Shown here: positions 49 to 58,530 of the stretch, one piece after another | Layout of the letters: each line of letters starts with the position of its first letter | Position numbering within the stretch: the stretch's first letter is position 1 | Source of the DNA: a phage | Direction: 5' to 3' (one strand) | Length of the DNA: 64,000 bases | NCBI GenBank assembly: GCA_036253495.1 | Contig: GCA_036253495.1_4125.1 | Position numbers and translations under genes: made by a program | The notes under the pieces: generated by a model | What the model saw: only the letters and a program-made list of their open reading frames with translations | Told to the model about the DNA's origin: nothing | Databases searched by the model: none

Positions 49-390
49 ATGGAAATTCTACGCGGAGATAGTGAAATTCGTCTATATAATGTATCACGCT
101 ACACTAAGATACTGGTAAAACATTCTTATGAAGATGACGAGAAGTTAGCTGTAGCTAAAATTGATTCAAACACTTTCAAAGAACAAATGTTCATGGCTGC
201 TATGTCATATGATCAATTAACTTATAATAAGCTAGAAATGGGTTATAAATTACTTAGGTTATTAGAAGATCATTATGAAATTACAATTATGGACAAATTG
301 CTTACCAAAAGCCAAGAGGAACTAGAGAAAATGCATTTGTTATTAAAAAAATATATTGATGATAATTTAAATTATGGAGAAGTACGTTGA
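49..390 (+). CDS. hypothetical protein (113 aa from first ATG; frame is open to the window start, so the true start may lie upstream)
   Basis: ORF track; stop overlaps TTG start of next gene; no recognisable motif. Confidence 0.55.
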
Positions 391-1799
391 AAAGTAATTT
401 AGAAAATATACGCAAAAAAGCCGATAATTTAGTACTATGTTGTATAGGGGCTTTATTCGCTGTTACTTTAGTTTCCGGTGTTGTTCATGGTAGTTTTATT
501 ATTGCACTAATCGGTGCAGTTTTATTATTAGTAATGCTAACTCCTTTACTATTTGTTGAAAGTAATGCGTTCACTCGAACGTTGTTAAGTATAAATGTGA
601 TGTGCTGGAGTGCGTTACTAATACATCTTGGCTTAGGGATGGTGGAATGGCACTTTACAGTTTTTGTCTTTTTAAGTTTATTGATTGTATGGCGTGACTG
701 GCGTTGTGTATTAGCAGGTTCAGTACTGATTGCTATACATCATTTATTATTTGGATTGTTACAGGGTGCTGGAATTCCAATATTATTCGTGTTTTCTTTT
801 CACCATATTTCGTTATGGCACATTATAGAGCACGCAATATATGTAGTAGTACAGGCAATAGTTCTGATGTACGTAGCGTACATTATGGAGAAAGATGCAA
901 ATGAAGCAGATGAAATTCAACGAATTGCAAGATCAGTGAATTCTGAAGACGGCAATATTACTTTAGAAATACAAAATAATCATTTCAACTCCGAATTTGC
1001 ACAGACTTTTAGTAAAACAATATCAGCTATGCGTGAGGCAATTGAACAAGTACAAATTACAGTTCAGTCAATGAAAAGCAACTCCTATCATCTCGAAAGT
1101 AAAAGTAATGATTTAGCTTTCAGAACTGAAACACAAGGACAGGCACTTACTCAAATCGCTGCTGCTATGGAAGAATTAAGTGCTACATCTGCAAATACAT
1201 CTGATAACTCCAATACTGCAAAAAGTATGGTTAAAACTACAAAAGAATCCAGTACTAATGCAATTGAAAGTATCAATAATTGCAAAGAGCAGATGGATAG
1301 AATTAAAGAAGATTCTAATGCTATAGTTGCTATACTCAAAAATATAGAAACTATTGCTTTCCAGACTAATATTCTTTCTTTAAATGCCAGTATTGAAGCT
1401 GCTAAAGCTGGTGAACATGGACGTGGATTCTCTGTTGTTGCACAGGAAGTTCGTAACTTAGCAATGAAATGTGATGCATGTAGTAAAGAAATTAAAGAAA
1501 TCGTTGATAACTCCGTAAAAAACAACAACCAAGGAATAGAACAAATCAACGAAACTGCAAGTGATATTGATTCTATTGTAAAAAATGTTGATTCACTCTT
1601 GCAGTTCATTGATGATTTAGCTATAATGGCTGAACAACAAAGCATTGCAATCCTTCAGGTTACTGAGAGTGTTAATATGATGGACCGTTCAGTACAGCAA
1701 AATGCGGAGCATGTAAAGGACACAATGATGATGGTAGACAATCAACAGTCTGAAGTACATGCTTTACAAAAAGCCACTTCGATTTTTAACGTGAAATAA
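387..1799 (+). CDS. methyl-accepting chemotaxis protein-like membrane protein
   Basis: 470 aa; TTG start with GGAGA about 7 nt upstream; N-terminal ~150 aa strongly hydrophobic (several predicted TM helices); C-terminal region carries the MCP signalling-domain core [33 protein letters not shown]; intrinsic terminator immediately downstream. Confidence 0.85.
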
Positions 1800-13719: not shown

Positions 13720-13752
13720 GAGTGGCAATATATCTTTGTCACTCTTTTTTTT
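13720..13752 (+). terminator. rho-independent terminator
   Basis: 9 bp stem gagtggcaa/ttgtcactc (one G-U) followed by a run of 8-9 T. Confidence 0.7.
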
Positions 13753-13760
13753 AATCCTGA

Positions 13761-14391
13761 AAGGTTCCATATGGAAATGATTAAGAGCCTAATCCACTCG
13801 AAAATGTAGAGGGTAGATGAGTAGTCCTTTCAGTACGAACAGCAGATGAAACCCGTCAGATGTGGGCATATTATGAACCCCTCACGGCAATGCGGCTGTA
13901 TAAAGAACTCCGATAAGCACACAGAGAGTTCCTAGATAGACATATAAGGATCGCACCTTACCAGATTTGCTAAGGGAGATTTCATTAGAAATTGCGGTCA
14001 ACTATTTGTACAAGATAGTTGCGTCCAAAATTTGGTGAAATCAAATACCAGTACTGTTCATATGGTACTCGTATTATGTGTCGGGATGTTTAAGACCGAC
14101 GACCGTTGCTACAAGAACCGCGATAGAGAGAAACAGAGCAACCCGCTTTCGCCTCGTTAAGAGAATTCGTGATATGAAATATGTGAAGACCACCAGCGTC
14201 AAATTTTAATTCTTTCCCCCAGTGGGGGGATGAAATATGCTCTTCCAAACCTCGTCAATATTAATTAAAACCATTTAGTACTATTAGAATTATTCAGAGC
14301 GTAGCGATGAATTAATTCTACTGATGTTGATTGAGTGCTAACGAAATCAATATCGAGTACATTATTTGATGTTTCCTAAAAAGGAATAATA
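13761..14391. other. ORF-free, GC-enriched intergenic island; candidate structured RNA, origin/packaging signal or decayed gene
   Basis: No ORF of 60 aa or more on either strand in a genome that is otherwise densely coding; local GC visibly higher than flanks (e.g. 14101-14160 about 50 percent); contains the hairpin cccccagtgggggg; only tiny peptide ORFs without credible RBS. Confidence 0.35.
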
Positions 14392-14934
14392 ATGCCTGTA
14401 TTTTCAAAGAACAAAACAACAGAGATCATTTATAAATCAAAAGAATTTGAAGTACTAGAAGAATTTGATAGAGATTCATTTGATGGATATAAAATAGTAA
14501 AAGAAAAAGGAACTATCAATCATATTGTTGAGTACATGGGAGGTGTAGAACTAGCAAAAATCACTTGTAGACCTACAAAAAACCCAGTAATTTTTTCTGT
14601 TCGCTATGGACATTACGGAGAAGAGCGATATAATTCTAATACAGTATCAAGGAAATTCCATGTTGTAGATGGGAAATTAGAAGGGGAATCCAGACAATAT
14701 AGTGTTCTTGGACTTCCTTTGTCAGTGAAGTACTTCCATCAAGGACATGATGTTACTATTGAAATTATGGATTTTATTGGGTTCAATGGTACAGTAGATG
14801 ACTTCAACTTCTATGTATTAGCAGAAGATGAAGCATTCAATATAATGATGAAGTACGGTTCTAGATTTAAATTTTTATATGAGTACAACCTGGACAGTAA
14901 ACTGTTCGATAATATCTTACAGAACTGTCTATAA
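14392..14934 (+). CDS. hypothetical protein
   Basis: ORF track; RBS AAAAAGGAA. Confidence 0.7.
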   Translation: MPVFSKNKTTEIIYKSKEFEVLEEFDRDSFDGYKIVKEKGTINHIVEYMGGVELAKITCRPTKNPVIFSVRYGHYGEERYNSNTVSRKFHVVDGKLEGESRQYSVLGLPLSVKYFHQGHDVTIEIMDFIGFNGTVDDFNFYVLAEDEAFNIMMKYGSRFKFLYEYNLDSKLFDNILQNCL

Positions 14935-14951
14935 TTAAAGGACTTAATGAT

Positions 14952-15479
14952 ATGGGGAAAAAGGATAATCCCACAAAAAACAAACATTCGGTACACTTCA
15001 GTACTGGAAAAGATAACTGGACTACTCCAAAGGAATTCTTTGAAGATTTGGATGAAGTCTGGGGATTTACACTTGATGCAGCATGTGTTAAAGAAACTGC
15101 ATTATGTGACAAGTTTTTTACACCGGAAGATGATAGTCTTTCACAGGATTGGGGAAACAATATCGTCTTTCTTAACCCACCATACAGCGACCTGAAACCT
15201 TGGCTATCTAAGGCAGTTGATGCTTATAATAATGGTGCAACAGTACTGATACTTGTTCCATCACGTACTGATACAATTGCATTTCAGGAATATGCATCTA
15301 AGCTTTGTGACTGTATTTGTTTTATTAAAGGACGTTTAAAATTTGGCATCCCTGAAGAACCAGATAAAAAGACTGATAGTGCTCCATTCCCTAGCTGTTT
15401 AATAGTACTGGATAAGTACTTAACACCAGCTAAAATCAACCATCTTAAATCTATCGGTCAGGTGATGAAGAATATATGA
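14952..15479 (+). CDS. dam: DNA N6-adenine methyltransferase, phage Dam family
   Basis: 175 aa; catalytic NPPY motif (FLNPPYSD); N-terminal WTTPKEFFEDL...FTLDAAC typical of small phage Dam-family enzymes. Confidence 0.8.
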   Translation: MGKKDNPTKNKHSVHFSTGKDNWTTPKEFFEDLDEVWGFTLDAACVKETALCDKFFTPEDDSLSQDWGNNIVFLNPPYSDLKPWLSKAVDAYNNGATVLILVPSRTDTIAFQEYASKLCDCICFIKGRLKFGIPEEPDKKTDSAPFPSCLIVLDKYLTPAKINHLKSIGQVMKNI

Positions 15480-16015
15480 AAGACACTTGTATAGTAACGT
15501 ATGGACGTATAAATCCAGTGCATTTGGGACATGGGTTAATTTTTGATAAAGCCGTATCGATGAAAGAACAATACAATGCTGATTTAAAAATATACCTTAG
15601 TACTACACAAGATTGTATTAAGAATCCATTACCACCTGAATTGAAAATGTATTACACTGAGGGTTTCTATCCAAGAATTCAACACAACATCAGTACTGAA
15701 GATAATCTTTTTGATATTATGCAGGAATTGAATGGTAAGTACAGTGATGTTCTTTTCATATGTGGTTCAGACAGGATAGAAAACTTTCAAAATGTACTTG
15801 ACAGATACAATGGAAACTTGTATAATTTTCGTAATATAAAAGCAATCCAAGCTGGTATAGACCGAACCGTTAGCAAGTACAGTTCAACTGAAATGCGTTC
15901 TTTTGCTAAGCGTGATGATTTTGAAAGCTTCAGTTCTTATCTACCAGGTGATGATAATGACTTGAAAATAAAACTTTTTAAAGATGTAATAAAATACATG
16001 AGGAAAGAACCATGA
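15476..16015 (+). CDS. HxGH nucleotidyltransferase (cytidylyltransferase fold; possible NMN adenylyltransferase)
   Basis: 179 aa; N-terminal GRINPVHLGH signature of the (H/T)xGH nucleotidyltransferase superfamily; ATGA overlap with dam. Confidence 0.6.
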   Translation: MKDTCIVTYGRINPVHLGHGLIFDKAVSMKEQYNADLKIYLSTTQDCIKNPLPPELKMYYTEGFYPRIQHNISTEDNLFDIMQELNGKYSDVLFICGSDRIENFQNVLDRYNGNLYNFRNIKAIQAGIDRTVSKYSSTEMRSFAKRDDFESFSSYLPGDDNDLKIKLFKDVIKYMRKEP

Positions 16016-16305
16016 CAGTACTCTTCAAAACTAACCCAGTACTATGGGAACAAAATGAAAGTTCAGGATATCGTAATATCCAAGTAGAATACAAAGGTAA
16101 CACTATTGTATCGGTTGTTGCGAACAAAACCCTAGGTGAATGGACATGTCAAGTGGTTCCAATGGGTTATTCATATCGTCTGGATGAAGTTGAATTTCTC
16201 GCTAATCTTTATTCACAAATGCAGTTCATTATGAACTTCCTTTGTACTGATACTGAACTTACACACGATGATGTAATCAACTTACTGGACAATTTACATG
16301 TCTGA
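16012..16305 (+). CDS. hypothetical protein
   Basis: ORF track; ATGA overlap. Confidence 0.65.
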   Translation: MTVLFKTNPVLWEQNESSGYRNIQVEYKGNTIVSVVANKTLGEWTCQVVPMGYSYRLDEVEFLANLYSQMQFIMNFLCTDTELTHDDVINLLDNLHV

Positions 16306-17191: not shown

Positions 17192-17220
17192 ATGCCCGAC
17201 TTTGTTCGGGCATCTTTTTA
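17192..17220 (+). terminator. rho-independent terminator
   Basis: Hairpin atgcccga/tcgggcat followed by CTTTTTA. Confidence 0.7.
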
Positions 17221-17231
17221 AGGAAAAGTAA

Positions 17232-17504
17232 ATGGACTATCGAGTACTGAATAGAACATATAAAGCTTTATACAAAACATATATTGAAAGTAAAGTACAT
17301 AATCCTATCATTTATAAAAATCCAGTTTATATTATATGGAATGAATATTTTACAATGATTCAAAATTACTTTTACTCTAACGAAATCTTTATAGATGGTG
17401 AAATGCGTAAGCTAACACGCGTTGATAGTATAGGTGGTGAAATTGTGTTATTCTATACTGATTCTATTATTGGACAACAATCTATAAATTTAGAGATATT
17501 ATAA
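17232..17504 (+). CDS. small protein, IG-motif paralog family
   Basis: 90 aa; N-terminal MDYRVLNRTYK and central SNEIFIDGE. Confidence 0.65.
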   Translation: MDYRVLNRTYKALYKTYIESKVHNPIIYKNPVYIIWNEYFTMIQNYFYSNEIFIDGEMRKLTRVDSIGGEIVLFYTDSIIGQQSINLEIL

Positions 17505-17770
17505 TGAATTATAAGGATTTACATTTCACCTATAAACTAACATTTTATATGTATCGTTATGCTGATAACAACTTCATGGATAATGCATTTTATCATCGTT
17601 TGTGGAGTGATTATATAAATTCTTTACGTGAACATTTTATAGGTACTATAATTCAATACGAAGGTAAAACAGTAAAAATATTTCAAGTTGATAGTTACAA
17701 CGGGGATCTATGCTTCAAGGGTAGAGATTCTAGTGATGGATTACATGAGATTTATATCTATGAATTATAA
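17504..17770 (+). CDS. small protein, IG-motif paralog family
   Basis: 88 aa; MNYKDLHFTYK...LREHFIGTII. Confidence 0.65.
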   Translation: MNYKDLHFTYKLTFYMYRYADNNFMDNAFYHRLWSDYINSLREHFIGTIIQYEGKTVKIFQVDSYNGDLCFKGRDSSDGLHEIYIYEL

Positions 17771-18035
17771 GGATTTACAATTCACGTACAAAATTCTTCA
17801 TGAACAATATGAACGTGGTGAAGGAATATTAACTTACGATGAACGAGATTTTTTTCTTACATTGTGGTGTGAATATTTGGCAATGATTAACGAGATTTTT
17901 GTTGATAAAGAATATATGATTGACGACATGACTGTACGTATTATCAGAATTAAAAGTTATAATGGAAGTCTTGTTGGAATTTACTATAACAATGAAAAGG
18001 CGAAAAGCGGATTTGTTGATTTGGAGTATCTATGA
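17760..18035 (+). CDS. small protein, IG-motif paralog family
   Basis: Track ORF 17688..18035 trimmed to the ATG giving MNYKDLQFTYK, matching paralog N termini. Confidence 0.65.
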   Translation: MNYKDLQFTYKILHEQYERGEGILTYDERDFFLTLWCEYLAMINEIFVDKEYMIDDMTVRIIRIKSYNGSLVGIYYNNEKAKSGFVDLEYL

Positions 18036-18295
18036 ACTATAATGATTTACAATTCACGTATCAACTTTTATATGATGATATGAATAACGAATTAGGTTTC
18101 TACTATGAAGTACGTAATAAAATATGGTCAAATTATCTATCTGAGATACAACATCATTTTATAGGACTTCCAATACGTAGAAATAATAAAAACTATCGTT
18201 GTACTGATGTAGTAAGTCATAGAGGTAGGTTGCGTTTAGAATTCTACCGCAGAGACGGGGACTTCATTGGTATAAATTTACTGGATTTTAAATGA
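18032..18295 (+). CDS. small protein, IG-motif paralog family
   Basis: 87 aa; MNYNDLQFTYQ...IQHHFIGLPI. Confidence 0.65.
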   Translation: MNYNDLQFTYQLLYDDMNNELGFYYEVRNKIWSNYLSEIQHHFIGLPIRRNNKNYRCTDVVSHRGRLRLEFYRRDGDFIGINLLDFK

Positions 18296-18358
18296 TGAAA
18301 AACAACTTAAAGGAAATACAAGTATTTTATAGATTCTTATACTTGTCATATGTAACAG

Positions 18359-18580
18359 ATGAGTACTATGAAAGTGTGTATTATTTTTTTATGGCAACAT
18401 TACCGTACTATAGTAAGAGATTTATATATAGGAAAATCTATCATATCCAATGGTGAAAAATGTACCTGTACAGATGTTGTTAGTTTTAATGGTTCTTTAA
18501 CACTGTGTTTCAGATGCGATAATAATAGTGGGTCATTTTCATTAAACGTATATCAGTTAGAAGGAATAAATTTTGAATAA
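18359..18580 (+). CDS. small protein, IG-motif paralog family
   Basis: 73 aa; RDLYIGKSII...CTCTDVVSFNGSL resembles neighbours. Confidence 0.55.
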   Translation: MSTMKVCIIFLWQHYRTIVRDLYIGKSIISNGEKCTCTDVVSFNGSLTLCFRCDNNSGSFSLNVYQLEGINFE

Positions 18581-18773
18581 GTGTCCATATTGTAACAGTA
18601 CTCAATTAGCTCGTTTCCGCTTAGATTCAGACTGGGCCACTGGTGCTGGGGATTTCTTTCCCATCAATGATGATGCGGAATACACTGAAGAACAGCACAA
18701 AGATTTTGATAAATCATGGCGACCTGACATTGAGTGCATTTATTGCCTTAATTGTGAGCGTGTACATGACTAA
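18573..18773 (+). CDS. small zinc-ribbon protein
   Basis: 66 aa; CPYCN ... CIYCLNC cysteine pairs. Confidence 0.55.
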   Translation: MNKCPYCNSTQLARFRLDSDWATGAGDFFPINDDAEYTEEQHKDFDKSWRPDIECIYCLNCERVHD

Positions 18774-19029
18774 AGCTGAACTAATAGTTCATACATATAA
18801 AATGATATACAGTACTGAGTTATCCTGTGGTGCAGATAATCCAGTACTGGACTATTTTATAGAATCTTTGAAAGAACATTATATTGGTAAATCACTGATT
18901 CTTAATAATATTAATTTCACTGTAAAGGATGTAGCACCTGGAAAAAACGTACTAATAGTATGTGTTACTTCATCTGATAACCCAGTATACCCAATAACAA
19001 TAATTTTTGAGGTATTAGGTGATTTATGA
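18766..19029 (+). CDS. small protein, IG-motif paralog family
   Basis: Track ORF 18643..19029 trimmed to ATG overlapping upstream stop; LKEHYIGKSLIL. Confidence 0.6.
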   Translation: MTKAELIVHTYKMIYSTELSCGADNPVLDYFIESLKEHYIGKSLILNNINFTVKDVAPGKNVLIVCVTSSDNPVYPITIIFEVLGDL

Positions 19030-43867: not shown

Positions 43868-44383
43868 TTATTGGAAACGAGCATACGGTGGGAATCTGGT
43901 TTGGTCAGGCCAATCTTTCGGAGAGAAGTAAGCAGTGAATTGCATTTTATCATTTGAATAAAGAACAAAATCATCTGGCTTTATTATAACTTTAGACAAC
44001 GAATTTGGCTCCACGTTCGTTCTTCTGAAAATTATTTCACCATTATGTAATTTTATTTTATTACTTTGATATTGAATACCAAAACCATACTTATTATTAA
44101 TAGCATCAGCTTCTTTTATGCAAAATGTATTATTTGCTAAAGATTTAGCAATTTCAGCATCGTCATCATCATACAACAATGTTGATTTATCTTTATTTCT
44201 ACCTGTGATTTTTATATCTTTGTAAATCTTGAAATTTTCAGATATTAAATCATATGAATCGAATGTTCTTTGTTTTATAACATACAATTCTTTAACAAAT
44301 ACTTGCCCTTCTATCTTTGCAGCAGTAACCTGCAATCCACCTATAACAAATGGAAATTGATCTAAGCCAGCTATTGGTTTCAT
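43868..44383 (-). CDS. hypothetical protein, paralog of the N-terminal domain of the Ig-like repeat protein
   Basis: 171 aa; MKPIAGLDQFPFVIGGLQVTAAKIEGQV...IKLHNGEII parallels the other two paralogs. Confidence 0.65.
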   Translation of the reverse strand: MKPIAGLDQFPFVIGGLQVTAAKIEGQVFVKELYVIKQRTFDSYDLISENFKIYKDIKITGRNKDKSTLLYDDDDAEIAKSLANNTFCIKEADAINNKYGFGIQYQSNKIKLHNGEIIFRRTNVEPNSLSKVIIKPDDFVLYSNDKMQFTAYFSPKDWPDQTRFPPYARFQ

Positions 44384-44517
44384 AACATCTCCTTACCTTA
44401 AAAATGGGATTGTAAACTGCCTCCCAATATGATACCATAGTTCAAATGGTCAATTGGTAAATCAATGAACTTAACAAAAACACTTGATACTACAGTCATA
44501 ATTGTTCAGTTTTGCAC

Positions 44518-44546
44518 TTGACATAATTGATCAATTATTGTACTAT
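44518..44546 (+). promoter_or_regulatory. sigma70-like promoter (TTGACA-17-TACTAT)
   Basis: Consensus -35 TTGACA, 17 nt spacer, -10 TACTAT, about 35 nt upstream of 44582. Confidence 0.5.
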
Positions 44547-44581
44547 TATTTATGTTCCTTAACTCAAATCCGAGGTAATCA

Positions 44582-45187
44582 ATGAAACGAATCTTGAAAG
44601 AGATTGTACAAACCGTTGTTTTAATCGCTGCATTAAACTTTCCGGCAGCGGCAGAAGTTTCAAAAAAATCATCTGTTTTTCTATTAAATGAACATGTTGT
44701 GTCAATTGATGGTGAACTAAATGATGAAACTGTACAAGAAGTGAAGAAGTTGTGGAAAGAAACAAGATTTAAAATTTTAACAATTACATCACCTGGTGGA
44801 GATTTTGATGCAGGATTAGATTTGGGATTGTTTGTGGCTGCTAAAAAGTTAACTGTTTATGTCCCAAAGCAATGTAATTCGTCTTGTAGTCTGGTTTTTT
44901 TCTCTGCATCATCTGAACGTAGGGATATGAGTGATACCGCAGTGATGGGTTTACATAACATCTCACTAGTATCTACGAATGGTGCAGATCCAGATACGAC
45001 ATTCGTTTCAGTTAGACAGTTGATGGAGTTTACACATCAAGTCTCAACTAAAGTTGGGTATCTTTTTACACTGTACGCACATAACGGTATCCCCGCTGAA
45101 ACACTCATTGATATCAGTACTAAACATGGTGAGGATATCGTTGTCTTACGAAGATCAGATCTCGTTAAATGGGGAATCATTCAATAA
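44582..45187 (+). CDS. secreted ClpP/S49-like (crotonase-fold) protein, possibly a divergent or inactive peptidase
   Basis: 201 aa; N-terminal signal-peptide-like segment; ITSPGGDFDAGLDLGLFV resembles the ClpP SPGG block, but the catalytic Ser context is not canonical. Confidence 0.4.
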   Translation: MKRILKEIVQTVVLIAALNFPAAAEVSKKSSVFLLNEHVVSIDGELNDETVQEVKKLWKETRFKILTITSPGGDFDAGLDLGLFVAAKKLTVYVPKQCNSSCSLVFFSASSERRDMSDTAVMGLHNISLVSTNGADPDTTFVSVRQLMEFTHQVSTKVGYLFTLYAHNGIPAETLIDISTKHGEDIVVLRRSDLVKWGIIQ

Positions 45188-45314
45188 AAAGTTGTATTTT
45201 TTATGAAGCAATGATATAATCCTAATACTAATTCATGATTTTGGTTAAGGGTGGTGTACTGCCACCCGATTTTAAGATATAATGGTTGTACATTATCAAC
45301 CAAGGAAACAAAAA

Positions 45315-45578
45315 ATGACAGAATTATCACATCTTCAAGGCTGGACAGAGTTCATCTTCTATGCTACTATAGTTACATATGGAATCATTGTTCTTTTATC
45401 AGTGATTATGGCAAGTGATTTCAAGAGTGGTTTTCTTGAAGAAAATGGTGAGTTTTCTTCTAAAACTGAAAAGTACTTTTATTATTTCTTTAAAATTTCG
45501 TATACAATTTTACTCATAATTTTGGGTTTACTATTGTATTTCATGTACACAATCTTAGATGTAATGCATCTTTTATAA
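45315..45578 (+). CDS. small membrane protein
   Basis: Track ORF 45282..45578 trimmed to ATG with AAGGA RBS; two hydrophobic helices. Confidence 0.55.
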   Translation: MTELSHLQGWTEFIFYATIVTYGIIVLLSVIMASDFKSGFLEENGEFSSKTEKYFYYFFKISYTILLIILGLLLYFMYTILDVMHLL

Positions 45579-45589
45579 CGGAGATATCA

Positions 45590-46192
45590 ATGACTTGTAT
45601 TATTGCTTACACTGATGGTAACACATCTTTTATCGCGGGTGACAAACTGGGTAGTAATGGTTTCACTAAAGCAATTCAAACTGAACCAAAAGTGTTTGAA
45701 AAAGAATTCATCAAAATCGATGAAAGTGGATTGAATCGCACCAAAGAAGTTATGGCAATGGGATACACGTCGAGCTTCCGCATGGGACAATTGCTGACGT
45801 ATAAACTTGATTTACCTGAACAGCAATCAAACCAAACATTCTCACAGTACTTAGTACTTGAGGTAATCCCACGTATTCGCACACTCTTCAAAGAAGAATG
45901 GGGTGCTCGTGATACAACTCAAGACGTTGGTGGTGGACAGTTTATTATTCTCCACAATCATACAATTTATGAAGTTCAAGAGGATTTTTCAGTACTCCAA
46001 CCTAAGACACAAATTACATCTGTTGGTAGTGGTACATATCATGCAATTGCAGCTATGCAAGCATATATTGAAGTTCAAAAAGAAACAGGTGTTAAGATGG
46101 TTGATCGCACCGATTCTATCTTCAAAATTGTAAGTGATAATGTTACCAGCGTTAGTGCTGAGTATGATTTACTAAGCTATCCTAAGCTGTAA
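45590..46192 (+). CDS. HslV/proteasome-like Ntn-hydrolase peptidase candidate
   Basis: 200 aa; Met-Thr N terminus then CIIAYTDG.TSFIAGD and later SVGSGTYHAIAAMQAY, resembling HslV blocks. Confidence 0.5.
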   Translation: MTCIIAYTDGNTSFIAGDKLGSNGFTKAIQTEPKVFEKEFIKIDESGLNRTKEVMAMGYTSSFRMGQLLTYKLDLPEQQSNQTFSQYLVLEVIPRIRTLFKEEWGARDTTQDVGGGQFIILHNHTIYEVQEDFSVLQPKTQITSVGSGTYHAIAAMQAYIEVQKETGVKMVDRTDSIFKIVSDNVTSVSAEYDLLSYPKL

Positions 46193-46200
46193 TACAAAAA

Positions 46201-46228
46201 AGGGGATTCTTATAATCCCCTATATTAA
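46201..46228 (+). terminator. probable rho-independent terminator
   Basis: Perfect 8 bp hairpin aggggatt/aatcccct; downstream tract is AT-rich rather than a clean T-run. Confidence 0.4.
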
Positions 46229-46252
46229 TTTAATAAGGAGAGTATTATAACT

Positions 46253-46465
46253 ATGATAACTATCAATTACTTTTCACTATGCTTTGTTTATTTTGTTGTT
46301 GTATTTCTAGCAGTTGTAGCGTACAATAATATTAAATGTATATATAAAATTATCAAAAACAAAGAGAAATTCAATGGATGGATGATATATCACATTGTCA
46401 TCTCGGTTGTGTGTATCTTATTTGTATACGATTTGAGTTCATTAGGTACAGTAGGTAAGCTATGA
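46253..46465 (+). CDS. small membrane protein
   Basis: 70 aa, two hydrophobic helices. Confidence 0.55.
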   Translation: MITINYFSLCFVYFVVVFLAVVAYNNIKCIYKIIKNKEKFNGWMIYHIVISVVCILFVYDLSSLGTVGKL

Positions 46466-47214
46466 TTTCTGACTCTTTTATAAAAAATAAAGGTAATAAA
46501 CGTGTATTGGTTATTTCCGGTGCAGGTCTATCCGTTGAAAGTGGGATGGAACCGTTTCGCATGGACGATGGCCTATGGGATCAATTTCAAATAAATGATG
46601 TATGTAACATTGCACGTCTTAGTACTAAGTATCATTTAGTACACACTTTCTATAATACATTACGTGTTAAAATGAAAGATTGTGTTCCTAATGATATGCA
46701 TTATTATATCAAATCTATAGAAGATACATACGGTGATAACTTTTTACATATGACTTCGAATATGGATGATCTCTATACTCGTATTGGTGGCAATGAATTA
46801 AAGTTACATGGTAATTTAAAAGAAGTTATTGAGAATTTTACAATTGGTGGTGACGATTATAGTATTGTGGATTGTGGTTATGAACCGTACATTCCGAAAG
46901 AAGGTGTCTTTGCGAAACCAAACGTAGTGTTCATTGGTGAATATTATCGTTATGTTGATGGTGAAAAACTCCCAATATACGATGAGCGTAATTTAGTATT
47001 GCAATCCTTAACAGAAGATGATACAGTTGTAGTCATTGGTAGCAGTGACACAGTACTGAAATGGTCACATCTGGTTGCGTGTTTACCATGCTTTAGTGTT
47101 AATATCAACATCAGAAAAAATGATAACGATTTCATGTTCAATGAAAAAATTATAAAACCAGCTACAAAAGCGATTCCAGTACTGGAAACTATCATTAAGG
47201 ATAGAATGAAATGA
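46462..47214 (+). CDS. Sir2-family NAD-dependent protein (deacylase/ADP-ribosyltransferase/NADase family)
   Basis: 250 aa; Rossmann motif ISGAGLSVESGMEPFR and catalytic-region LHGN; ATGA overlaps at both ends. Confidence 0.75.
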   Translation: MISDSFIKNKGNKRVLVISGAGLSVESGMEPFRMDDGLWDQFQINDVCNIARLSTKYHLVHTFYNTLRVKMKDCVPNDMHYYIKSIEDTYGDNFLHMTSNMDDLYTRIGGNELKLHGNLKEVIENFTIGGDDYSIVDCGYEPYIPKEGVFAKPNVVFIGEYYRYVDGEKLPIYDERNLVLQSLTEDDTVVVIGSSDTVLKWSHLVACLPCFSVNINIRKNDNDFMFNEKIIKPATKAIPVLETIIKDRMK

Positions 47215-47759
47215 TTCGAGAAGTACCTCTAGGTGAGTATGGTAAACGAGCAAACTTTGTATTCTGTTACTTCTTTGCTCGAAATTGTAACCCATATAAA
47301 GGTTATGATTTAAATGATATCCCTGTTGTGAATCTGGTATTACTCCAGCTTCGTTGGGATGGTTTACTGGGTGGTTGTGGTGGAACAGTTGAAGATACCG
47401 ATGCCACCTTAGAAGATGCACTATTCCGTGAAATTCAGGAAGAGATGGATTATAATATTTTCATCGAACAACTGAAACCATTGAAAACTTACGAACTATA
47501 TCCAGGAGCACATACTCATAGCTATAGTTATGAAGTTACTTACGAAGAATTGAAAGCGATTCGCGATGGATACTGTACTGCTAAACATGCAAGTGCAGAA
47601 GTGGCTGGTGTTAATTTATGTCACATTTCTCGTTATTCAAAGGGACAAAACCGAGAAGCAGGATATAATAATCTTATGACACAAAACTTCATAGGAACTG
47701 CTAAAATGGAATTAGAACATCTTGTTCAATCCGAGAATTTACTGATTAGTTACTTATAA
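47211..47759 (+). CDS. Nudix hydrolase-like protein
   Basis: 182 aa; Nudix-box-like GGCGGTVED...REIQEEMD with slightly non-canonical spacing. Confidence 0.55.
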   Translation: MIREVPLGEYGKRANFVFCYFFARNCNPYKGYDLNDIPVVNLVLLQLRWDGLLGGCGGTVEDTDATLEDALFREIQEEMDYNIFIEQLKPLKTYELYPGAHTHSYSYEVTYEELKAIRDGYCTAKHASAEVAGVNLCHISRYSKGQNREAGYNNLMTQNFIGTAKMELEHLVQSENLLISYL

Positions 47760-55554: not shown

Positions 55555-56496
55555 ATGCAAATAGATAAATTATATACGGACGTAACTAACTTCCTCAACC
55601 AGAGTAACGCTGATTTAACAAATGAAAATGCAAATAAAGACGCTAAATGTGTTAATACACATCGTGATTTATTGGCAGGTATTCTTTCTAAACATTATTC
55701 CCAAGATGTGATTCCTGATGAATTGATGAAGTGGCATAATGAAGGTTACGGTCATATTCATGATTTAGACTATTACATTAGCCCATTAACAAACTGTTGT
55801 TTAGTTAATTATCCTGATATGCTTGCTAATGGCTTCATGATTGGTTGTGCCAAGATTGAAGAACCAAAAAGCTTTGGGGTAGCTTGTACAGTACTAACAC
55901 AGATTGTTCAGGCTGTGGCAAGTTCACAGTACGGTGGTCAGTCGTTGGCTCACATTGACACTGGCCTTGCACCATATGTACAAAAGTCATGGGATAAACT
56001 TCTAGAAAAACAAAAGAAATACAATCTTAGTACTGAATTCATCGAAGATGAGTTGCGTAAGGAAGTTTATGACGGTTGTCAAACAATTCTATATCAAACA
56101 AACTCAATGATCAGTACTAATGGTCAGGCTGCGTTCATTTCTTTGAGTTTAGGATTAGGTACATCTAAATTTGAAAAACTAATCACTGAACAATATTTGA
56201 AAGTACATGAAAATGGACTAGGTAAAGATAAGATTACTCCAGTATTTCCTAAAGTAATATTCTTTCTTCAGGATGGAATTAATATGAATACCAATGATAC
56301 TAACTATGATCTTAAACAGTTAGCTATGCGTTGTGCATCAAAAAGAATCTATCCAGACTTTGTTTCTGTACCATTGAACCATAAAGTAACTGGAAGTACC
56401 AGTACTGCTGTTACTCCTATGGGATGCAGAAGCTTCTTAGGTAAATGGGAAGATGAAAATGGCAACGAACAGTACAATGGCCGTTTCAATTTGGGT
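55555..56496 (+). CDS. nrdD: anaerobic ribonucleoside-triphosphate reductase NrdD, exon 1
   Basis: N-terminal 314 codons of a class III RNR; the frame runs into the interruption and stops at 56523; proposed 5-prime splice site after ...GRFNLG (exon ends in U). Confidence 0.75.
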
Positions 56497-57666
56497 AGAC
56501 ATACATGCCCCATTGCTGAGTGATCAGTAATTGCAAACACGTTAACATGCTGGAACCCCCTAAAGCCATAAACACTACAACGCAATCTTAATAGATAAAC
56601 GTGAATGTTACGAGAGTAGAAAAAAGTTTTATGGATATATAATAAGTTGTAAATCATATTATATGTACAATGGGAAATCAGCAGCCAAGCCATCATTAAT
56701 ATAATGGTGGAAGGTTCAACGAGTATAATACGTGACTCTAATATTAAAACTTCCATAAATAATATTTTATGGAGGATATATAATGAGAAAAGGAAGTATA
56801 TATAAAATAGAATGTATAGTAACTAATAAAGTTTATATTGGACAAACCGTTTTATATCCACCGATGAAAAGATGGGTGGAACACTGCCAAAACAATGATG
56901 AAAAATCATGTATTAGTAAAGCTATTAAAAAATTTGGTTTTGAAAATTTCACATTTCAAATTTTAAAAACTAATATTGATTTAAATAATCTTAATGATGA
57001 AGAAATAAAATATATTGAAATTTATGATAGTTATAAGAATGGTTACAACTCAACATTAGGTGGTCACCAAACCTTTAATGGAAGTAAAATAACTGAACTT
57101 GATGCTATAAAAATTATAGAATATATTAAATCATATAAAGATCTTTCATTCGTAGAAATAGCAAAAACTTTAAATGTTCCATACGGCTGTGTAAGTGATA
57201 TAAATTGTGGCGAAACTTGGTATCAAATAAATGAAACATACCCTATTAGAGATAACAAAAGAAATAAGATTGAAGATAATATAGATTCAATTTATGAGTT
57301 ATTGAGAAATGGTGTTTCTAGTATAGAAATTGCAAAAATATATAATGTTTCAAATGTCACCATTTGTAACGTTAATAATGGAACAATCTATCGAAACGAA
57401 TCAGTTGAATACCCAATTTTTAAACCACAAAATTCATCAAAACGACATTCTATTGAAATAGTTTCTAAGATTATTGATATGTTAATTAATACAGATAAAA
57501 ATTATTCTGAAATTGCAAAATGTTTAAATGTAGGAAGAAAAACTGTTGCAAATATCAATAACGGTTCTGGATATAAAGAACTATCAAATGAACTTGGTTA
57601 TATATCATTTCCTCTTCGTTAGAGTATGGTGTACTCTAATCCTTCATGAAAGTGAAGGTACAAATG
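56497..57666 (+). mobile_element. probable group I intron interrupting nrdD, carrying a GIY-YIG homing endonuclease ORF
   Basis: 1.17 kb separating two halves of nrdD; exon 1 ends in T, the interruption ends in G (candidate omega-G); GCCCC a few nt inside the 5-prime end can pair with exon GGGU (P1 with U-G wobble); ~285 nt structured segment precedes the ORF, as in the T4 nrdD intron. Confidence 0.6.
56783..57622 (+). CDS. GIY-YIG homing endonuclease (I-TevII-like)
   Basis: 279 aa; N-terminal GIY-YIG module (GSIYKIECIVTNKVYIGQT); repeated helix-turn-helix-like segments downstream; lies within the nrdD interruption. Confidence 0.8.
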   Translation: MRKGSIYKIECIVTNKVYIGQTVLYPPMKRWVEHCQNNDEKSCISKAIKKFGFENFTFQILKTNIDLNNLNDEEIKYIEIYDSYKNGYNSTLGGHQTFNGSKITELDAIKIIEYIKSYKDLSFVEIAKTLNVPYGCVSDINCGETWYQINETYPIRDNKRNKIEDNIDSIYELLRNGVSSIEIAKIYNVSNVTICNVNNGTIYRNESVEYPIFKPQNSSKRHSIEIVSKIIDMLINTDKNYSEIAKCLNVGRKTVANINNGSGYKELSNELGYISFPLR

Positions 57667-58530
57667 GTTGTCTCAATCAACCTACCGCTAATTGCTCTTG
57701 AAAGCACTACTGATGGTGATTTCTTTGATAAGATAGATGAGCATATGAACATTGCATACAGAGCACAGATGAACCGTGTAGAGCGTTTAAAAGGTACTAA
57801 GGCTAAACAGAACCCGATTCTGTTCATGGAAGGTGCTCTTGCACGTCTTGATGCAGAAGAAACTATTGACAAACTCTTCTACGATGGTTATGCTAGTATT
57901 AGTATTGGTTATGTAGGATTAGTTGAATGTTCAGAGATTTTGACTGGTTCAATCAGTAAAGAGTTCTGTATGTCAGTACTGAATTATATGAAAGTCAAAT
58001 GCGATGAGTTCAAAAAAGAGAGTAACATAGCTTTTAGTCTATATGGAACCCCAGCAGAGTCACTTTGCTACAAATTTGCACGTTGCATCGAATCTAAGTA
58101 CCCTTCAGTACTAAAACGTGATTACATCACAAATTCCTTCCATCAACCAGTATGGGTAGAAAGTTCACCATTTGATAAGTGGAGTTACGAAGAGGGCTTT
58201 GCTTACCTCAGCAATGGAGGAAACATCAGTTATGTGGAATCACCCAACCTAAGTAACAATATTCAAGCACTTGAGACTTTAGTCAATTACGCTTACACAA
58301 AGATTCCATATTTTGGCATCAACCAGCCAATTGACCAGTGTTTCGAGTGTGGGTATAAAGGTGAGTTCAGTGTAGATAAACACGGTTTTCATTGTCCAGT
58401 ATGTGATAATCGCAATGAGAAGACAATCTCAGTGATTCGTCGTGTTTCTGGATATTTGGGGAACCCATCGTCTCGTGGATTCAACAAAGGCAAACAACAA
58501 GAATGTTGTGAGCGTATACAACACAAATAA
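57667..58530 (+). CDS. nrdD: anaerobic ribonucleoside-triphosphate reductase NrdD, exon 2
   Basis: C-terminal part with zinc ribbon CFECGY...CPVCDN and glycyl-radical motif RRVSGYLG; exon junction reads ...FNLG|VVSINLPLIALE. Confidence 0.75.
   Translation, partial: VVSINLPLIALESTTDGDFFDKIDEHMNIAYRAQMNRVERLKGTKAKQNPILFMEGALARLDAEETIDKLFYDGYASISIGYVGLVECSEILTGSISKEFCMSVLNYMKVKCDEFKKESNIAFSLYGTPAESLCYKFARCIESKYPSVLKRDYITNSFHQPVWVESSPFDKWSYEEGFAYLSNGGNISYVESPNLSNNIQALETLVNYAYTKIPYFGINQPIDQCFECGYKGEFSVDKHGFHCPVCDNRNEKTISVIRRVSGYLGNPSSRGFNKGKQQECCERIQHK

What the first reader, a model, noticed from the sequence alone, without database searches (positions are those of the whole stretch)
14952..16015. 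Orphan Dam-family N6-adenine methyltransferase coupled to an HxGH nucleotidyltransferase
The methyltransferase (NPPY motif) has no partner restriction enzyme and overlaps (ATGA) a nucleotidyltransferase with the GRINPVHLGH signature. The methyltransferase specificity is unknown; whether it relates to the enriched AGTACT palindrome or to GATC is open. The nucleotidyltransferase could be an NMN adenylyltransferase (NAD salvage) or could supply an activated nucleotide for DNA modification.
Basis: inference. Interest (0 to 1): 0.5.

Follow-up and report, generated by a model that had tools for sequence, protein, structure and literature searches.

The report
Orphan phage methylase beside unrelated nucleotidyltransferase
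Two neighbouring genes of a giant E. coli phage encode a stand-alone DNA adenine methylase and a small NMNAT/PPAT-like nucleotidyltransferase; both are already annotated in dozens of related phages, and nothing indicates that they work together.

Summary
ORF 14952-15479 is a 175-aa Pfam PF05869 "Dam" adenine methyltransferase with NPPY. ORF 15476-16015 is a 179-aa HxGH nucleotidyltransferase (GRINPVHLGH, SSTEMR). The two overlap by ATGA.

The window is an Asteriusvirus jumbo coliphage, 99.6% identical to phage A4, where both genes are already annotated.

No restriction partner was found, so "orphan" holds. "Coupled" does not hold:
- ATGA overlaps join 21 of 103 neighbouring gene pairs in the window.
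- The adjacency exists only inside the strongly syntenic Rak2-like jumbo clade.
- It is absent from 53 distant loci, PA5oct-like phages and cyanophages.

The nucleotidyltransferase belongs to the large phage-specific "cytitidyltransferase" family. Cyanophage members are virion proteins. Its fold is closest to NadM/archaeal NMNAT, with PPAT and NadD nearly as close. The acceptor substrate is unresolved. Sister genera carry a canonical NadM-Nudix NMNAT plus Nampt in addition to this gene.

Methylase specificity cannot be computed. AGTACT is 8-fold enriched and GATC depleted, and both patterns are clade-wide. A Staphylococcus phage carrying the closest outside homologue shows no AGTACT enrichment.

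By-product: a conserved, covarying, roughly 460-nt structured RNA candidate lies just upstream (13794-14256). It occurs 4-5 times per genome and has no Rfam match.

The parts
14952..15479 (+). Orphan phage-type N6-adenine DNA methyltransferase gene (175 aa), orthologue of A4_406
   Evidence: Pfam PF05869 Dam 4e-32. phrog_111 7e-57. PADLOC oMTase 2e-35. 95% identical to the A4 protein annotated 'DNA N-6-adenine-methyltransferase'.
15174..15185 (+). Codons of the catalytic NPPY tetrapeptide (motif IV)
   Evidence: Read from the sequence. N75, P76, P77 and Y78 are invariant in orthologues down to 44% identity.
15476..16015 (+). Stand-alone HIGH-motif nucleotidyltransferase gene (179 aa), member of the phage 'cytitidyltransferase' family, orthologue of A4_407
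15503..15532 (+). GRINPVHLGH: the (H/T)xGH nucleotide-binding signature
   Evidence: Sequence. G10, R11, P14 and H19 are invariant across 28 diverse family members. (T/H)xGH is present in 144 of 150 representatives.
15881..15898 (+). SSTEMR: second superfamily motif (ISxTxxR type)
   Evidence: Sequence. S136 and R141 are invariant. S-x-[ST]-x-x-R was found in 147 of 150 representatives.
15476..15479 (+). ATGA start/stop overlap between the MTase and NTase genes
   Evidence: Sequence. The same junction type occurs in 21 of 103 adjacent gene pairs.
16012..16015 (+). ATGA overlap between the NTase gene and the next ORF (16012-16305, phrog_14956, unknown function)
14392..14934 (+). Upstream ORF (180 aa, phrog_16210, unknown function), 17 nt before the MTase gene
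   Evidence: No Pfam or PADLOC match.
13720..13744 (+). Terminator-like hairpin plus T-run, the likely upstream limit of the transcription unit
   Evidence: Terminators are annotated at the equivalent place in Munch and GAP32.
17192..17213 (+). Terminator-like hairpin, the likely downstream limit of the transcription unit

Best explanation
These are two functionally independent genes in one tightly packed, probably co-transcribed block of an Asteriusvirus (Rak2-like) jumbo coliphage.

(1) The first gene encodes a small, TRD-less, phage-type orphan N6-adenine DNA methyltransferase of the PF05869 'Dam' family. It most likely methylates the phage's own replicating DNA at a short adenine-containing motif and so blunts host restriction. 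The enzymatic class is shown by homology. The target motif is not known. GATC is the family precedent, from my own knowledge of the T1, HP1 and VT2/933W enzymes.

(2) The second gene encodes a stand-alone copy of the catalytic domain of the large phage-specific 'cytitidyltransferase' family. This is a HIGH-motif alpha/beta nucleotidyltransferase with the NadM/NadD/PPAT architecture. It most likely transfers AMP from ATP to a phosphorylated small-molecule acceptor. An NMN-like mononucleotide is the leading guess, but the acceptor is inferred, not shown.

Their adjacency and ATGA overlap reflect conserved synteny and genome compaction, not a pathway.
For: Identity of the window: 99.6% to Escherichia phage A4, genus Asteriusvirus, where both genes are already annotated.

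MTase: PF05869 at 111.6 bits; PADLOC orphan MTase; NPPY and 58 other residues invariant in orthologues down to 44% identity; no nuclease-like neighbour. The RaK2 paper reports virion DNA cut only by methylation-insensitive enzymes, and two MTases including the orthologue gp447 (PMC3622015).

Independence of the two genes: ATGA overlap occurs in 21 of 103 pairs. No MTase lies next to the NTase in 53 distant IMG/VR loci, in Paride, or in syn9 and S-SCSM1. Of 1678 phage records with the MTase family and 560 with the NTase family, the two lists share few of their commonest host genera; the co-occurrences I verified directly are all Rak2-like jumbo phages. Synteny in that clade is general, as the CBB region mirrors the window from RNA ligase to NrdD.
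Against: The adjacency MTase followed by NTase is kept down to 43%/36% protein identity in Eneladusvirus, so a functional link cannot be formally excluded. Neither enzyme activity has been measured in any clade member. The NTase falls below the Pfam CTP_transf_like and NCBIfam NadD cut-offs, so even 'adenylyltransferase' is an inference from fold. The MTase falls just below the TIGR01712 equivalog cut-off (90.9 against 97.05).
Confidence: 0.65

Rival explanations
1. The nucleotidyltransferase is a true NMN/NaMN adenylyltransferase. It makes NAD+ during infection, for the phage Sir2 or to counter NAD-depleting defences.
Confidence: 0.25
2. The methyltransferase is a GATC (Dam-type) enzyme, like the characterised PF05869 members.
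For: Family membership. T1-like and Stx-phage homologues are retrieved at 30-35% identity. From my own knowledge, these enzymes methylate GATC. RaK2 DNA behaves as Dam-methylated in digests (PMC3622015).
Against: Identity to those enzymes is only about 30-35%. The closest outside relatives are Firmicute phage enzymes of unknown specificity, at 41-47%. The hosts themselves are Dam+, so the RaK2 digests do not discriminate. GATC is depleted here (102 against 166.8, z=-8), which a self-protecting GATC methylase would not require.
Confidence: 0.35
3. The methyltransferase writes m6A in the hyper-abundant (C)AGTACT(G) palindrome, in a relationship like that between highly iterated palindromes and methylases.
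For: AGTACT is 8-13-fold enriched in every clade member tested that carries the orthologue: window, A4, WPEC5, RaK2, pEa_SNUABM_19 and CBB; XaC1 is equally enriched, but its orthologue is only inferred from the Xanthomonas count. It is not enriched in the relatives tested in which no orthologue was found: Paride (none beside its NTase) and Vibrio 2.275.O (no Vibrio record in the E<=1e-31 search). The enrichment is at DNA level: it occurs in all three frames and in intergenic DNA, z=24 against codon shuffles.
Against: The co-occurrence amounts to a single phylogenetic event. Staphylococcus phage 80, with the closest outside homologue (47%), has AGTACT at 4 against 7.6 expected. There is no mechanistic reason for a protective methylase to have an enriched target. 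Other clade-specific genes could equally be responsible.
Confidence: 0.08
4. MTase and NTase form a two-step DNA hypermodification module, in which the NTase supplies an activated nucleotide-linked donor.
For: Conserved adjacency within the Rak2-like clade down to 36-43% identity, and translational coupling.
Against: No other hypermodification genes lie in the unit. Each family occurs overwhelmingly without the other. PF05869 enzymes are plain AdoMet methylases. The SD-1_S14 record appears to lack most of the MTase yet keeps the NTase (record quality doubtful).
Confidence: 0.04

Closest known systems
Phage-type orphan Dam methyltransferases of Pfam PF05869 / TIGR01712 (T1 Dam, HP1 Dam, VT2/933W Dam)
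   Same: Size of about 170 aa, no separate target-recognition domain, (D/N)PPY catalytic motif, phage-borne, no cognate nuclease. The Pfam score is four times the cut-off.
   Different: Only 30-35% identical to the T1-like and Stx-phage enzymes. It falls below the TIGR01712 equivalog cut-off. Specificity is untested, and it sits in a 350-kb virulent jumbo phage.
NadM / archaeal NMN adenylyltransferase (Francisella NadM-Nudix 2qjt, M. jannaschii MJ0541 1f9a)
   Different: 13-17% identity, no Nudix domain, fails the curated NMNAT/NadD models, and coexists with a real NadM-Nudix in sister phages.
Phosphopantetheine adenylyltransferase (CoaD/PPAT)
   Different: 12-16% identity. The profile-to-PDB E-value is only 0.013. 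There is no CoA-pathway context.
T4-like cyanophage 'cytitidyltransferase' (syn9 gp184/gp185; S-SCSM1 virion 'NMNAT')
   Same: Same family: 30-39% identity over the whole domain and the same motifs.
   Different: The cyanophage and most metagenomic members are 380-1100 aa. They carry long basic or acidic C-terminal extensions, sit among structural genes and are found in virions. The jumbo-phage protein is the bare domain, located in a block of small non-structural genes.
Highly iterated palindrome HIP1 and its methyltransferases in cyanobacteria (recalled from the literature, not tested here)
   Same: A short palindrome enriched many-fold genome-wide, co-occurring with an orphan methyltransferase.
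   Different: Here the link between AGTACT and this MTase is only a single-clade co-occurrence. It is not reproduced in a Staphylococcus phage with the nearest homologue.

Membership tests
Pfam PF05869 Dam (phage-type N6-adenine MTase) | Profile score above the curated gathering cut-off | tested here: met
   111.6 bits against 28.1, E=4e-32, covering profile positions 7-153 of 169.
Pfam PF05869 Dam (phage-type N6-adenine MTase) | Catalytic (D/N)PP(Y/F/W) motif IV | tested here: met
   NPPY at residues 75-78, invariant in six orthologues down to 44% identity.
NCBIfam TIGR01712 phage_N6A_met (equivalog) | Score above the equivalog cut-off | tested here: not met
   90.9 bits against a cut-off of 97.05. 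This is a near miss, so functional equivalence to the curated set is not guaranteed.
Dam-type (GATC) specificity | Methylation of the adenine in GATC | not testable with these tools
   Only indirect evidence is available: 30-35% identity to T1-like and Stx-phage enzymes, and GATC depleted 0.6-fold.
Orphan (solitary) methyltransferase | No cognate restriction endonuclease in the neighbourhood | tested here: met
   Seven flanking ORFs have no Pfam, PHROG or PADLOC nuclease match. The MTase itself best matches the PADLOC 'oMTase' model, E=2e-35. Small proteins of unknown function remain, so an unrecognised nuclease is not excluded.
HIGH-motif nucleotidyltransferase superfamily (cytidylyltransferase-like) | (H/T)xGH motif after strand 1 and an ISxTxxR-type motif near the C-terminus | tested here: met
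   HLGH at residues 16-19 and SSTEMR at 136-141, conserved family-wide.
HIGH-motif nucleotidyltransferase superfamily (cytidylyltransferase-like) | Rossmann-like alpha/beta fold of the superfamily | tested here: met
HIGH-motif nucleotidyltransferase superfamily (cytidylyltransferase-like) | Pfam PF01467 CTP_transf_like above the gathering cut-off | tested here: not met
   14.6 bits against 21 for the window protein. Several family relatives do pass: P0032 at 30.8 and P0043 at 32.5.
NMN/NaMN adenylyltransferase (NadD, NadM, NadR) | Match to curated NMNAT/NadD models | tested here: not met
   TIGR00482 scores 20.2 bits against 112.45. The profile-to-PDB E-value is 0.004-0.01.
NMN/NaMN adenylyltransferase (NadD, NadM, NadR) | Genomic association with NAD-salvage partners (Nampt, PnuC, Nudix) | tested here: not met
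   No Nampt or NadM-Nudix homologue in the window. In sister genera these genes lie about 25 kb away and include their own NMNAT.
NMN/NaMN adenylyltransferase (NadD, NadM, NadR) | NAD+/NaAD synthesis from ATP plus NMN/NaMN | not testable with these tools
   Needs an enzyme assay.
Phage 'cytitidyltransferase' family (phrog_3041 / phrog_395) | Profile match over the whole catalytic domain | tested here: met
   phrog_3041 5.5e-54 and phrog_395 1e-25. 560 phage records by tblastn. 3361 representatives at E<=1e-3.

The most novel reading that the evidence does not exclude
The orphan methyltransferase marks the adenines of the hyper-abundant (C)AGTACT(G) palindrome. This motif occurs about once per 360 bp and is 8-13-fold enriched in the seven Rak2-like enterobacterial jumbo phage genomes sampled. 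The mark would give these 350-kb genomes a dense epigenetic 'self' signature, read by phage proteins for DNA organisation, packaging or host/self discrimination. This would be a viral counterpart of the pairing between highly iterated palindromes and methylases.
Probability: 0.07. Interest if true: 0.7.

Novelty: already known. Interest (0 to 1): 0.22.

Why it matters
As stated, the finding matters little. Both genes are annotated as 'DNA N-6-adenine-methyltransferase' and 'cytitidyltransferase' in A4, 121Q, PBECO4, RaK2 and dozens of other records, and protective methylation has already been proposed in print for this clade.

Two open questions remain of modest interest.
- Which motif does this methylase subfamily recognise? 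It occurs in the enterobacterial Rak2-like jumbo phages sampled and, in a close homologue, in phi11-like Staphylococcus phages.
- What is the substrate of the very large phage-specific nucleotidyltransferase family? It has thousands of members, and cyanophage members are packaged in virions. No member has been assayed, to my knowledge.

The follow-up produced something of greater potential value than the finding itself. It is a conserved, covarying, multi-copy structured RNA candidate of about 460 nt, immediately upstream, with no Rfam family.

Tried and rejected
- Sequence search of both proteins against PDB chains gave nothing meaningful.
- The first AF2 model, built from a shallow 13-sequence alignment, was poor (pLDDT 74.7; Foldseek TM about 0.4). 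It was replaced by a 28-sequence alignment (pLDDT 94.6).
- The search for related loci with the diverse alignment failed because no stretch was conserved enough. The closer alignment was used instead.
- I looked for neighbours that recur beside distant NTase homologues. Only structural genes recurred, such as tail-tube-like and tape-measure-like genes, which says nothing about substrate.
- I considered Hia5-type non-specific adenine methylases as a model. They have a TRD region and a different architecture (PMC3299994), so they are not comparable.
- Literature searches for PF05869 specificity, AGTACT in phages, and methylomes of these phages found nothing usable.
- Four papers on jumbo coliphages (phAPEC6, fEgEco12, UE-S1, EJP2) mention neither the nucleotidyltransferase nor NAD genes.
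- I did not fetch a whole Asteriusvirus genome. Absence of Nampt and NadM-Nudix is inferred from the syntenic slot and from ranked tblastn lists, not from an exhaustive scan.

Full report
**What the window is.** The 2.2 kb around the finding is 99.6% identical to Escherichia phage A4 (ON286972, 355 kb, genus Asteriusvirus). It is 79% identical to other members of that genus, such as 121Q, PBECO4 and WPEC5. In A4 the two genes are already annotated as A4_406 'DNA N-6-adenine-methyltransferase' and A4_407 'putative cytitidyltransferase'. The window has 33-37% G+C, nearly all genes on the + strand and no tRNA genes.

**Check of the observation.** The two ORFs are exactly where stated.
- ORF 14952-15479 encodes 175 aa with NPPY at residues 75-78.
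- ORF 15476-16015 encodes 179 aa with GRINPVHLGH at residues 10-19.
- The two overlap by ATGA.
- The nucleotidyltransferase also has the second superfamily motif, SSTEMR, at residues 136-141.

The overlap, however, is not a mark of partnership. With a simple gene call, 21 of 103 adjacent same-strand pairs in this window have the same 4-base overlap, and 22 more overlap in other ways. The nucleotidyltransferase gene is joined to the next ORF of unknown function by another ATGA at 16012-16015.

**The methyltransferase.**
- It matches Pfam PF05869 'Dam' at 111.6 bits against a cut-off of 28.1.
- It matches phrog_111 at E=7e-57.
- Its best PADLOC model is 'orphan methyltransferase', E=2e-35.
- It falls just short of the NCBIfam equivalog TIGR01712 (90.9 against 97.05 bits).
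- No solved structure is detectable by sequence.

Orthologues at E<=1e-31 occur in 84 phage records. These cover the enterobacterial Rak2-like jumbo genera sampled: Asteriusvirus, RaK2/K64-1, Munch-like, EJP2, Eneladusvirus, Mimasvirus and Yersinia fHe-Yen9. The closest outsiders are phi11-like Staphylococcus phages at 47% identity. T1-like and Stx-phage Dam homologues are only 30-35% identical. NPPY and 58 other residues are invariant among six orthologues down to 44% identity, which suggests an active enzyme.

None of the seven flanking ORFs matches a nuclease family in Pfam, PHROGs or PADLOC, so 'orphan' is supported. The RaK2 paper reports, as data not shown, that virion DNA is cut only by enzymes insensitive to Dam, Dcm, CpG or EcoKI methylation. 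It names two methylases, one of them the orthologue gp447 (PMC3622015). This fits an active methylase. It does not identify the motif, because the hosts are themselves Dam+.

**The nucleotidyltransferase.**
- Curated libraries barely see it: Pfam FAD_syn E=0.015, CTP_transf_like E=0.039, NadD TIGR00482 at 20 bits against 112.
- PHROGs places it firmly in phrog_3041/395 'cytidyltransferase'.
- A profile of 13 close homologues found 3361 relatives among 1.84 billion representative proteins.
- Of the best 150, 98 are longer than 400 aa, and 142 carry the domain at the N-terminus.
- The C-terminal parts are mostly unassigned, highly charged sequence. Occasional DUF5824, P-loop kinase or intein pieces occur.
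- The (T/H)xGH motif is present in 144 of 150 and the S-x-[ST]-x-x-R motif in 147 of 150. G10, R11, P14, H19, K57, R100, S136 and R141 are invariant in a diverse 28-sequence alignment.

By tblastn, 560 phage records carry the family. Most are T4-like cyanophages. In these the gene is the long-known 'cytitidyltransferase', sits among structural genes and has been detected in virions (PMC9602691). PA5oct-like Pseudomonas phages have it too.

With the deeper alignment the AlphaFold model reached pLDDT 94.6.
- Foldseek gives TM 0.60-0.66 to NadD and PPAT at 12-20% identity.
- A profile comparison with the NadM-Nudix protein of phage CBB gives 82% probability over the first 65 residues, aligning GRxNPxHxGH with GRFQxxHxGH and KNPL with KNPF.

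The protein is therefore a genuine HIGH-motif nucleotidyltransferase, most like mononucleotide and phosphopantetheine adenylyltransferases. The acceptor cannot be read from these data.

**Is it the phage's NMNAT?** The CBB genome is collinear with the window from RNA ligase through PNKP, DNA ligase, ClpP, an Ig-domain protein, Sir2 and PhoH to NrdD. Between the Ig-domain protein and Sir2, CBB carries a bifunctional NadM-Nudix NMNAT and a Nampt. Both genes are present at 56-96% identity (Nampt) and 61-96% (NMNAT) in GAP32, Eneladusvirus, Munch-like phages, EJP2, RaK2 and K64-1. K64-1, Munch and BF were shown to carry the small nucleotidyltransferase as well, and the RaK2 and EJP2 records annotate a cytidyltransferase beside the methylase; CBB and GAP32 were not checked for it.

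The window has no homologue of either NAD gene; only Sir2 is retained. Apart from EJP2, which its own record files under Asteriusvirus and which has both genes, no Asteriusvirus record appears among the 40 best hits for either protein. Only 10 Escherichia records match the NMNAT at all, against 33 Escherichia records that carry the methylase orthologue (32 besides EJP2). The small enzyme is thus kept whether or not a canonical NMNAT/Nampt pair is present. This argues against its being simply 'the' NMNAT and leaves it without an NMN-producing partner here. I rate the NMNAT reading at about 0.25.

**Is the pair a module?** The adjacency is conserved within the Rak2-like clade, even at 43% (MTase) and 36% (NTase) identity in Eneladusvirus. 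Gene order in that clade is conserved generally. Outside the clade the two families do not travel together.
- None of 53 distant viral loci with the nucleotidyltransferase has the methylase within 4 kb.
- Paride, syn9 and S-SCSM1 do not have it nearby either.
- The commonest host genera of the 1678 methylase-bearing and the 560 NTase-bearing phage records differ sharply; co-occurrence was confirmed directly only in the jumbo clade.
- No other modification genes are in the unit.
- One record (Salmonella phage SD-1_S14) appears to lack the first ~140 codons of the methylase while keeping the nucleotidyltransferase. Its fragmented annotation suggests a low-quality assembly, so I give this little weight.

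I find no support for a supply-of-activated-nucleotide role.

**AGTACT or GATC?** The enrichment is real and striking.
- AGTACT occurs 177 times against 21.6 expected.
- The extended palindrome CAGTACTG occurs 57 times against 0.6 expected.
- The motif occurs in all three reading frames and at proportional density in non-coding DNA.
- It exceeds synonymous-codon shuffles by z=24 (147 against 31.8 +/- 4.8).
- In the same shuffles GATC is depleted (102 against 166.8, z=-8.1), and GCGC is absent (0 against 34).

The AGTACT enrichment (8-13-fold) and the total lack of GCGC recur in A4, WPEC5, RaK2, pEa_SNUABM_19, CBB and XaC1. They are missing in Paride and in Vibrio phage 2.275.O. The latter shares the NAD genes, and no Vibrio record appeared in the E<=1e-31 methylase search. 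The pattern therefore co-occurs with the methylase orthologue, but as a single clade, which counts as one evolutionary event. The only independent test available goes the other way. Staphylococcus phage 80, with the nearest outside homologue, has AGTACT at 4 against 7.6 expected. I therefore rate the AGTACT-target idea at under 0.1 and GATC at about 0.35, with the rest unknown.

**Verdict on the finding.** The description is accurate and the family assignments are right. Orphan status is supported. The 'coupling' is a by-product of compaction and synteny. The gene pair is already annotated in dozens of public genomes. It is of low interest as stated.

**By-product worth recording.** The 647-nt ORF-free stretch just upstream (13745-14391) follows a terminator-like hairpin. 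It is more conserved than the surrounding genes.
- It is 86-88% identical across Asteriusvirus.
- It is 66-74% identical over about 480 nt in Eneladusvirus, Mimasvirus, Munch-like phages, EJP2 and XaC1, where the neighbouring proteins are only about 40% identical.
- BLAST finds 269 places in 62 records, which is 4-5 per genome. These include full-length copies at non-syntenic positions in CBB and XaC1.
- Carefully annotated records place no CDS there.

An alignment of 11 copies gives a consensus structure of 74 pairs in 16 helices.
- 95.2% of cells are paired, against 35-47% when partners are slid by 1-3 columns.
- 28 pairs show compensatory changes, against 16.3 +/- 2.1 in shuffles (0 of 500 reach it) and 5-8 in the slid controls.
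- Invariant G-U pairs favour the + strand.
- Rfam 15 has no match, even at E<=10.

The core maps to window 13794-14256. I did not establish expression or function.

Noticed in passing
window 13794-14256 (+), within the ORF-free stretch 13745-14391: Candidate structured RNA of about 460 nt, conserved more strongly than the flanking genes. It is 86-88% identical within Asteriusvirus and 66-74% across Rak2-like genera. BLAST places it 4-5 times per genome in 62 phage records. The consensus has 74 pairs; 28 show compensatory changes; 95% of cells are paired against 35-47% in slid controls. No Rfam 15 match.
   Followed up: partly
whole window; also L001-L004, L058, L062, L063: AGTACT is 8-13-fold enriched (CAGTACTG about 90-fold in Asteriusvirus), in all reading frames and in intergenic DNA, z=24 against codon shuffles. 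This holds in the seven enterobacterial Rak2-like jumbo phage genomes sampled, but not in Paride, Vibrio phage 2.275.O, the cyanophages or Staphylococcus phage 80. The cause is unknown.
   Followed up: partly
whole window; also L001-L004, L058, L062, L063: GCGC is completely absent: 0 against 34-56 expected in the window, and 0 in every other clade member sampled. Many G+C-rich 6-bp palindromes also have zero copies. This is far stronger than ordinary restriction avoidance.
   Followed up: partly
window 14935-14951; L001 6558-7172 (A4_405): Phage A4 carries a 615-nt HNH homing-endonuclease-like ORF (phrog_953, E=1e-64) inserted between the upstream ORF and the methylase gene. The otherwise 99.6%-identical window lacks it, so this is a mobile-element presence/absence polymorphism. 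It also changes the methylase N-terminus.
   Followed up: partly
window 43868-46462, compared with L062 14983-18190: The NadM-Nudix NMNAT plus Nampt pair present in CBB, GAP32, RaK2, K64-1, Munch, EJP2 and Eneladusvirus, between the Ig-domain protein and Sir2, is missing at the syntenic slot here. Two protease-like ORFs (phrog_26024; phrog_1040, HslV-like) occupy the space.
   Followed up: partly
window 15798-15826 (+): A perfect sigma-70 consensus (TTGACA, 17 nt, TATAAT; 12 of 12) lies inside the nucleotidyltransferase coding sequence. It may be an internal promoter for the downstream small ORFs, or a chance match.
   Followed up: no
window 55555-58530: The anaerobic ribonucleotide reductase NrdD is split into two ORFs (55555-56523 and 57646-58530) by a GIY-YIG/HTH homing-endonuclease ORF (56783-57622). 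In CBB the gene is intact.
   Followed up: no
window 387-1799 (+): A 470-aa phage ORF with a methyl-accepting chemotaxis protein signalling domain (PF00015, E=7e-37).
   Followed up: no
window 46462-47759 (+): A Sir2-family gene overlaps by 4 bases a Nudt16-like Nudix hydrolase gene. This is a possible NAD/ADP-ribose-handling pair, retained although the NAD-synthesis genes are absent.
   Followed up: no
window 17232-19029 (+): A tandem run of five or six small paralogous ORFs of about 73-128 aa, several starting MNYxDLxFTY. This looks like a locally amplified gene family of unknown function.
   Followed up: no
L073 (Salmonella phage SD-1_S14, OR699183 79500-83000): This Asteriusvirus record appears to lack roughly the first 140 codons of the methylase gene while keeping the nucleotidyltransferase and most of the upstream RNA-like element. 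The many tiny annotated CDS suggest a low-quality assembly.
   Followed up: partly
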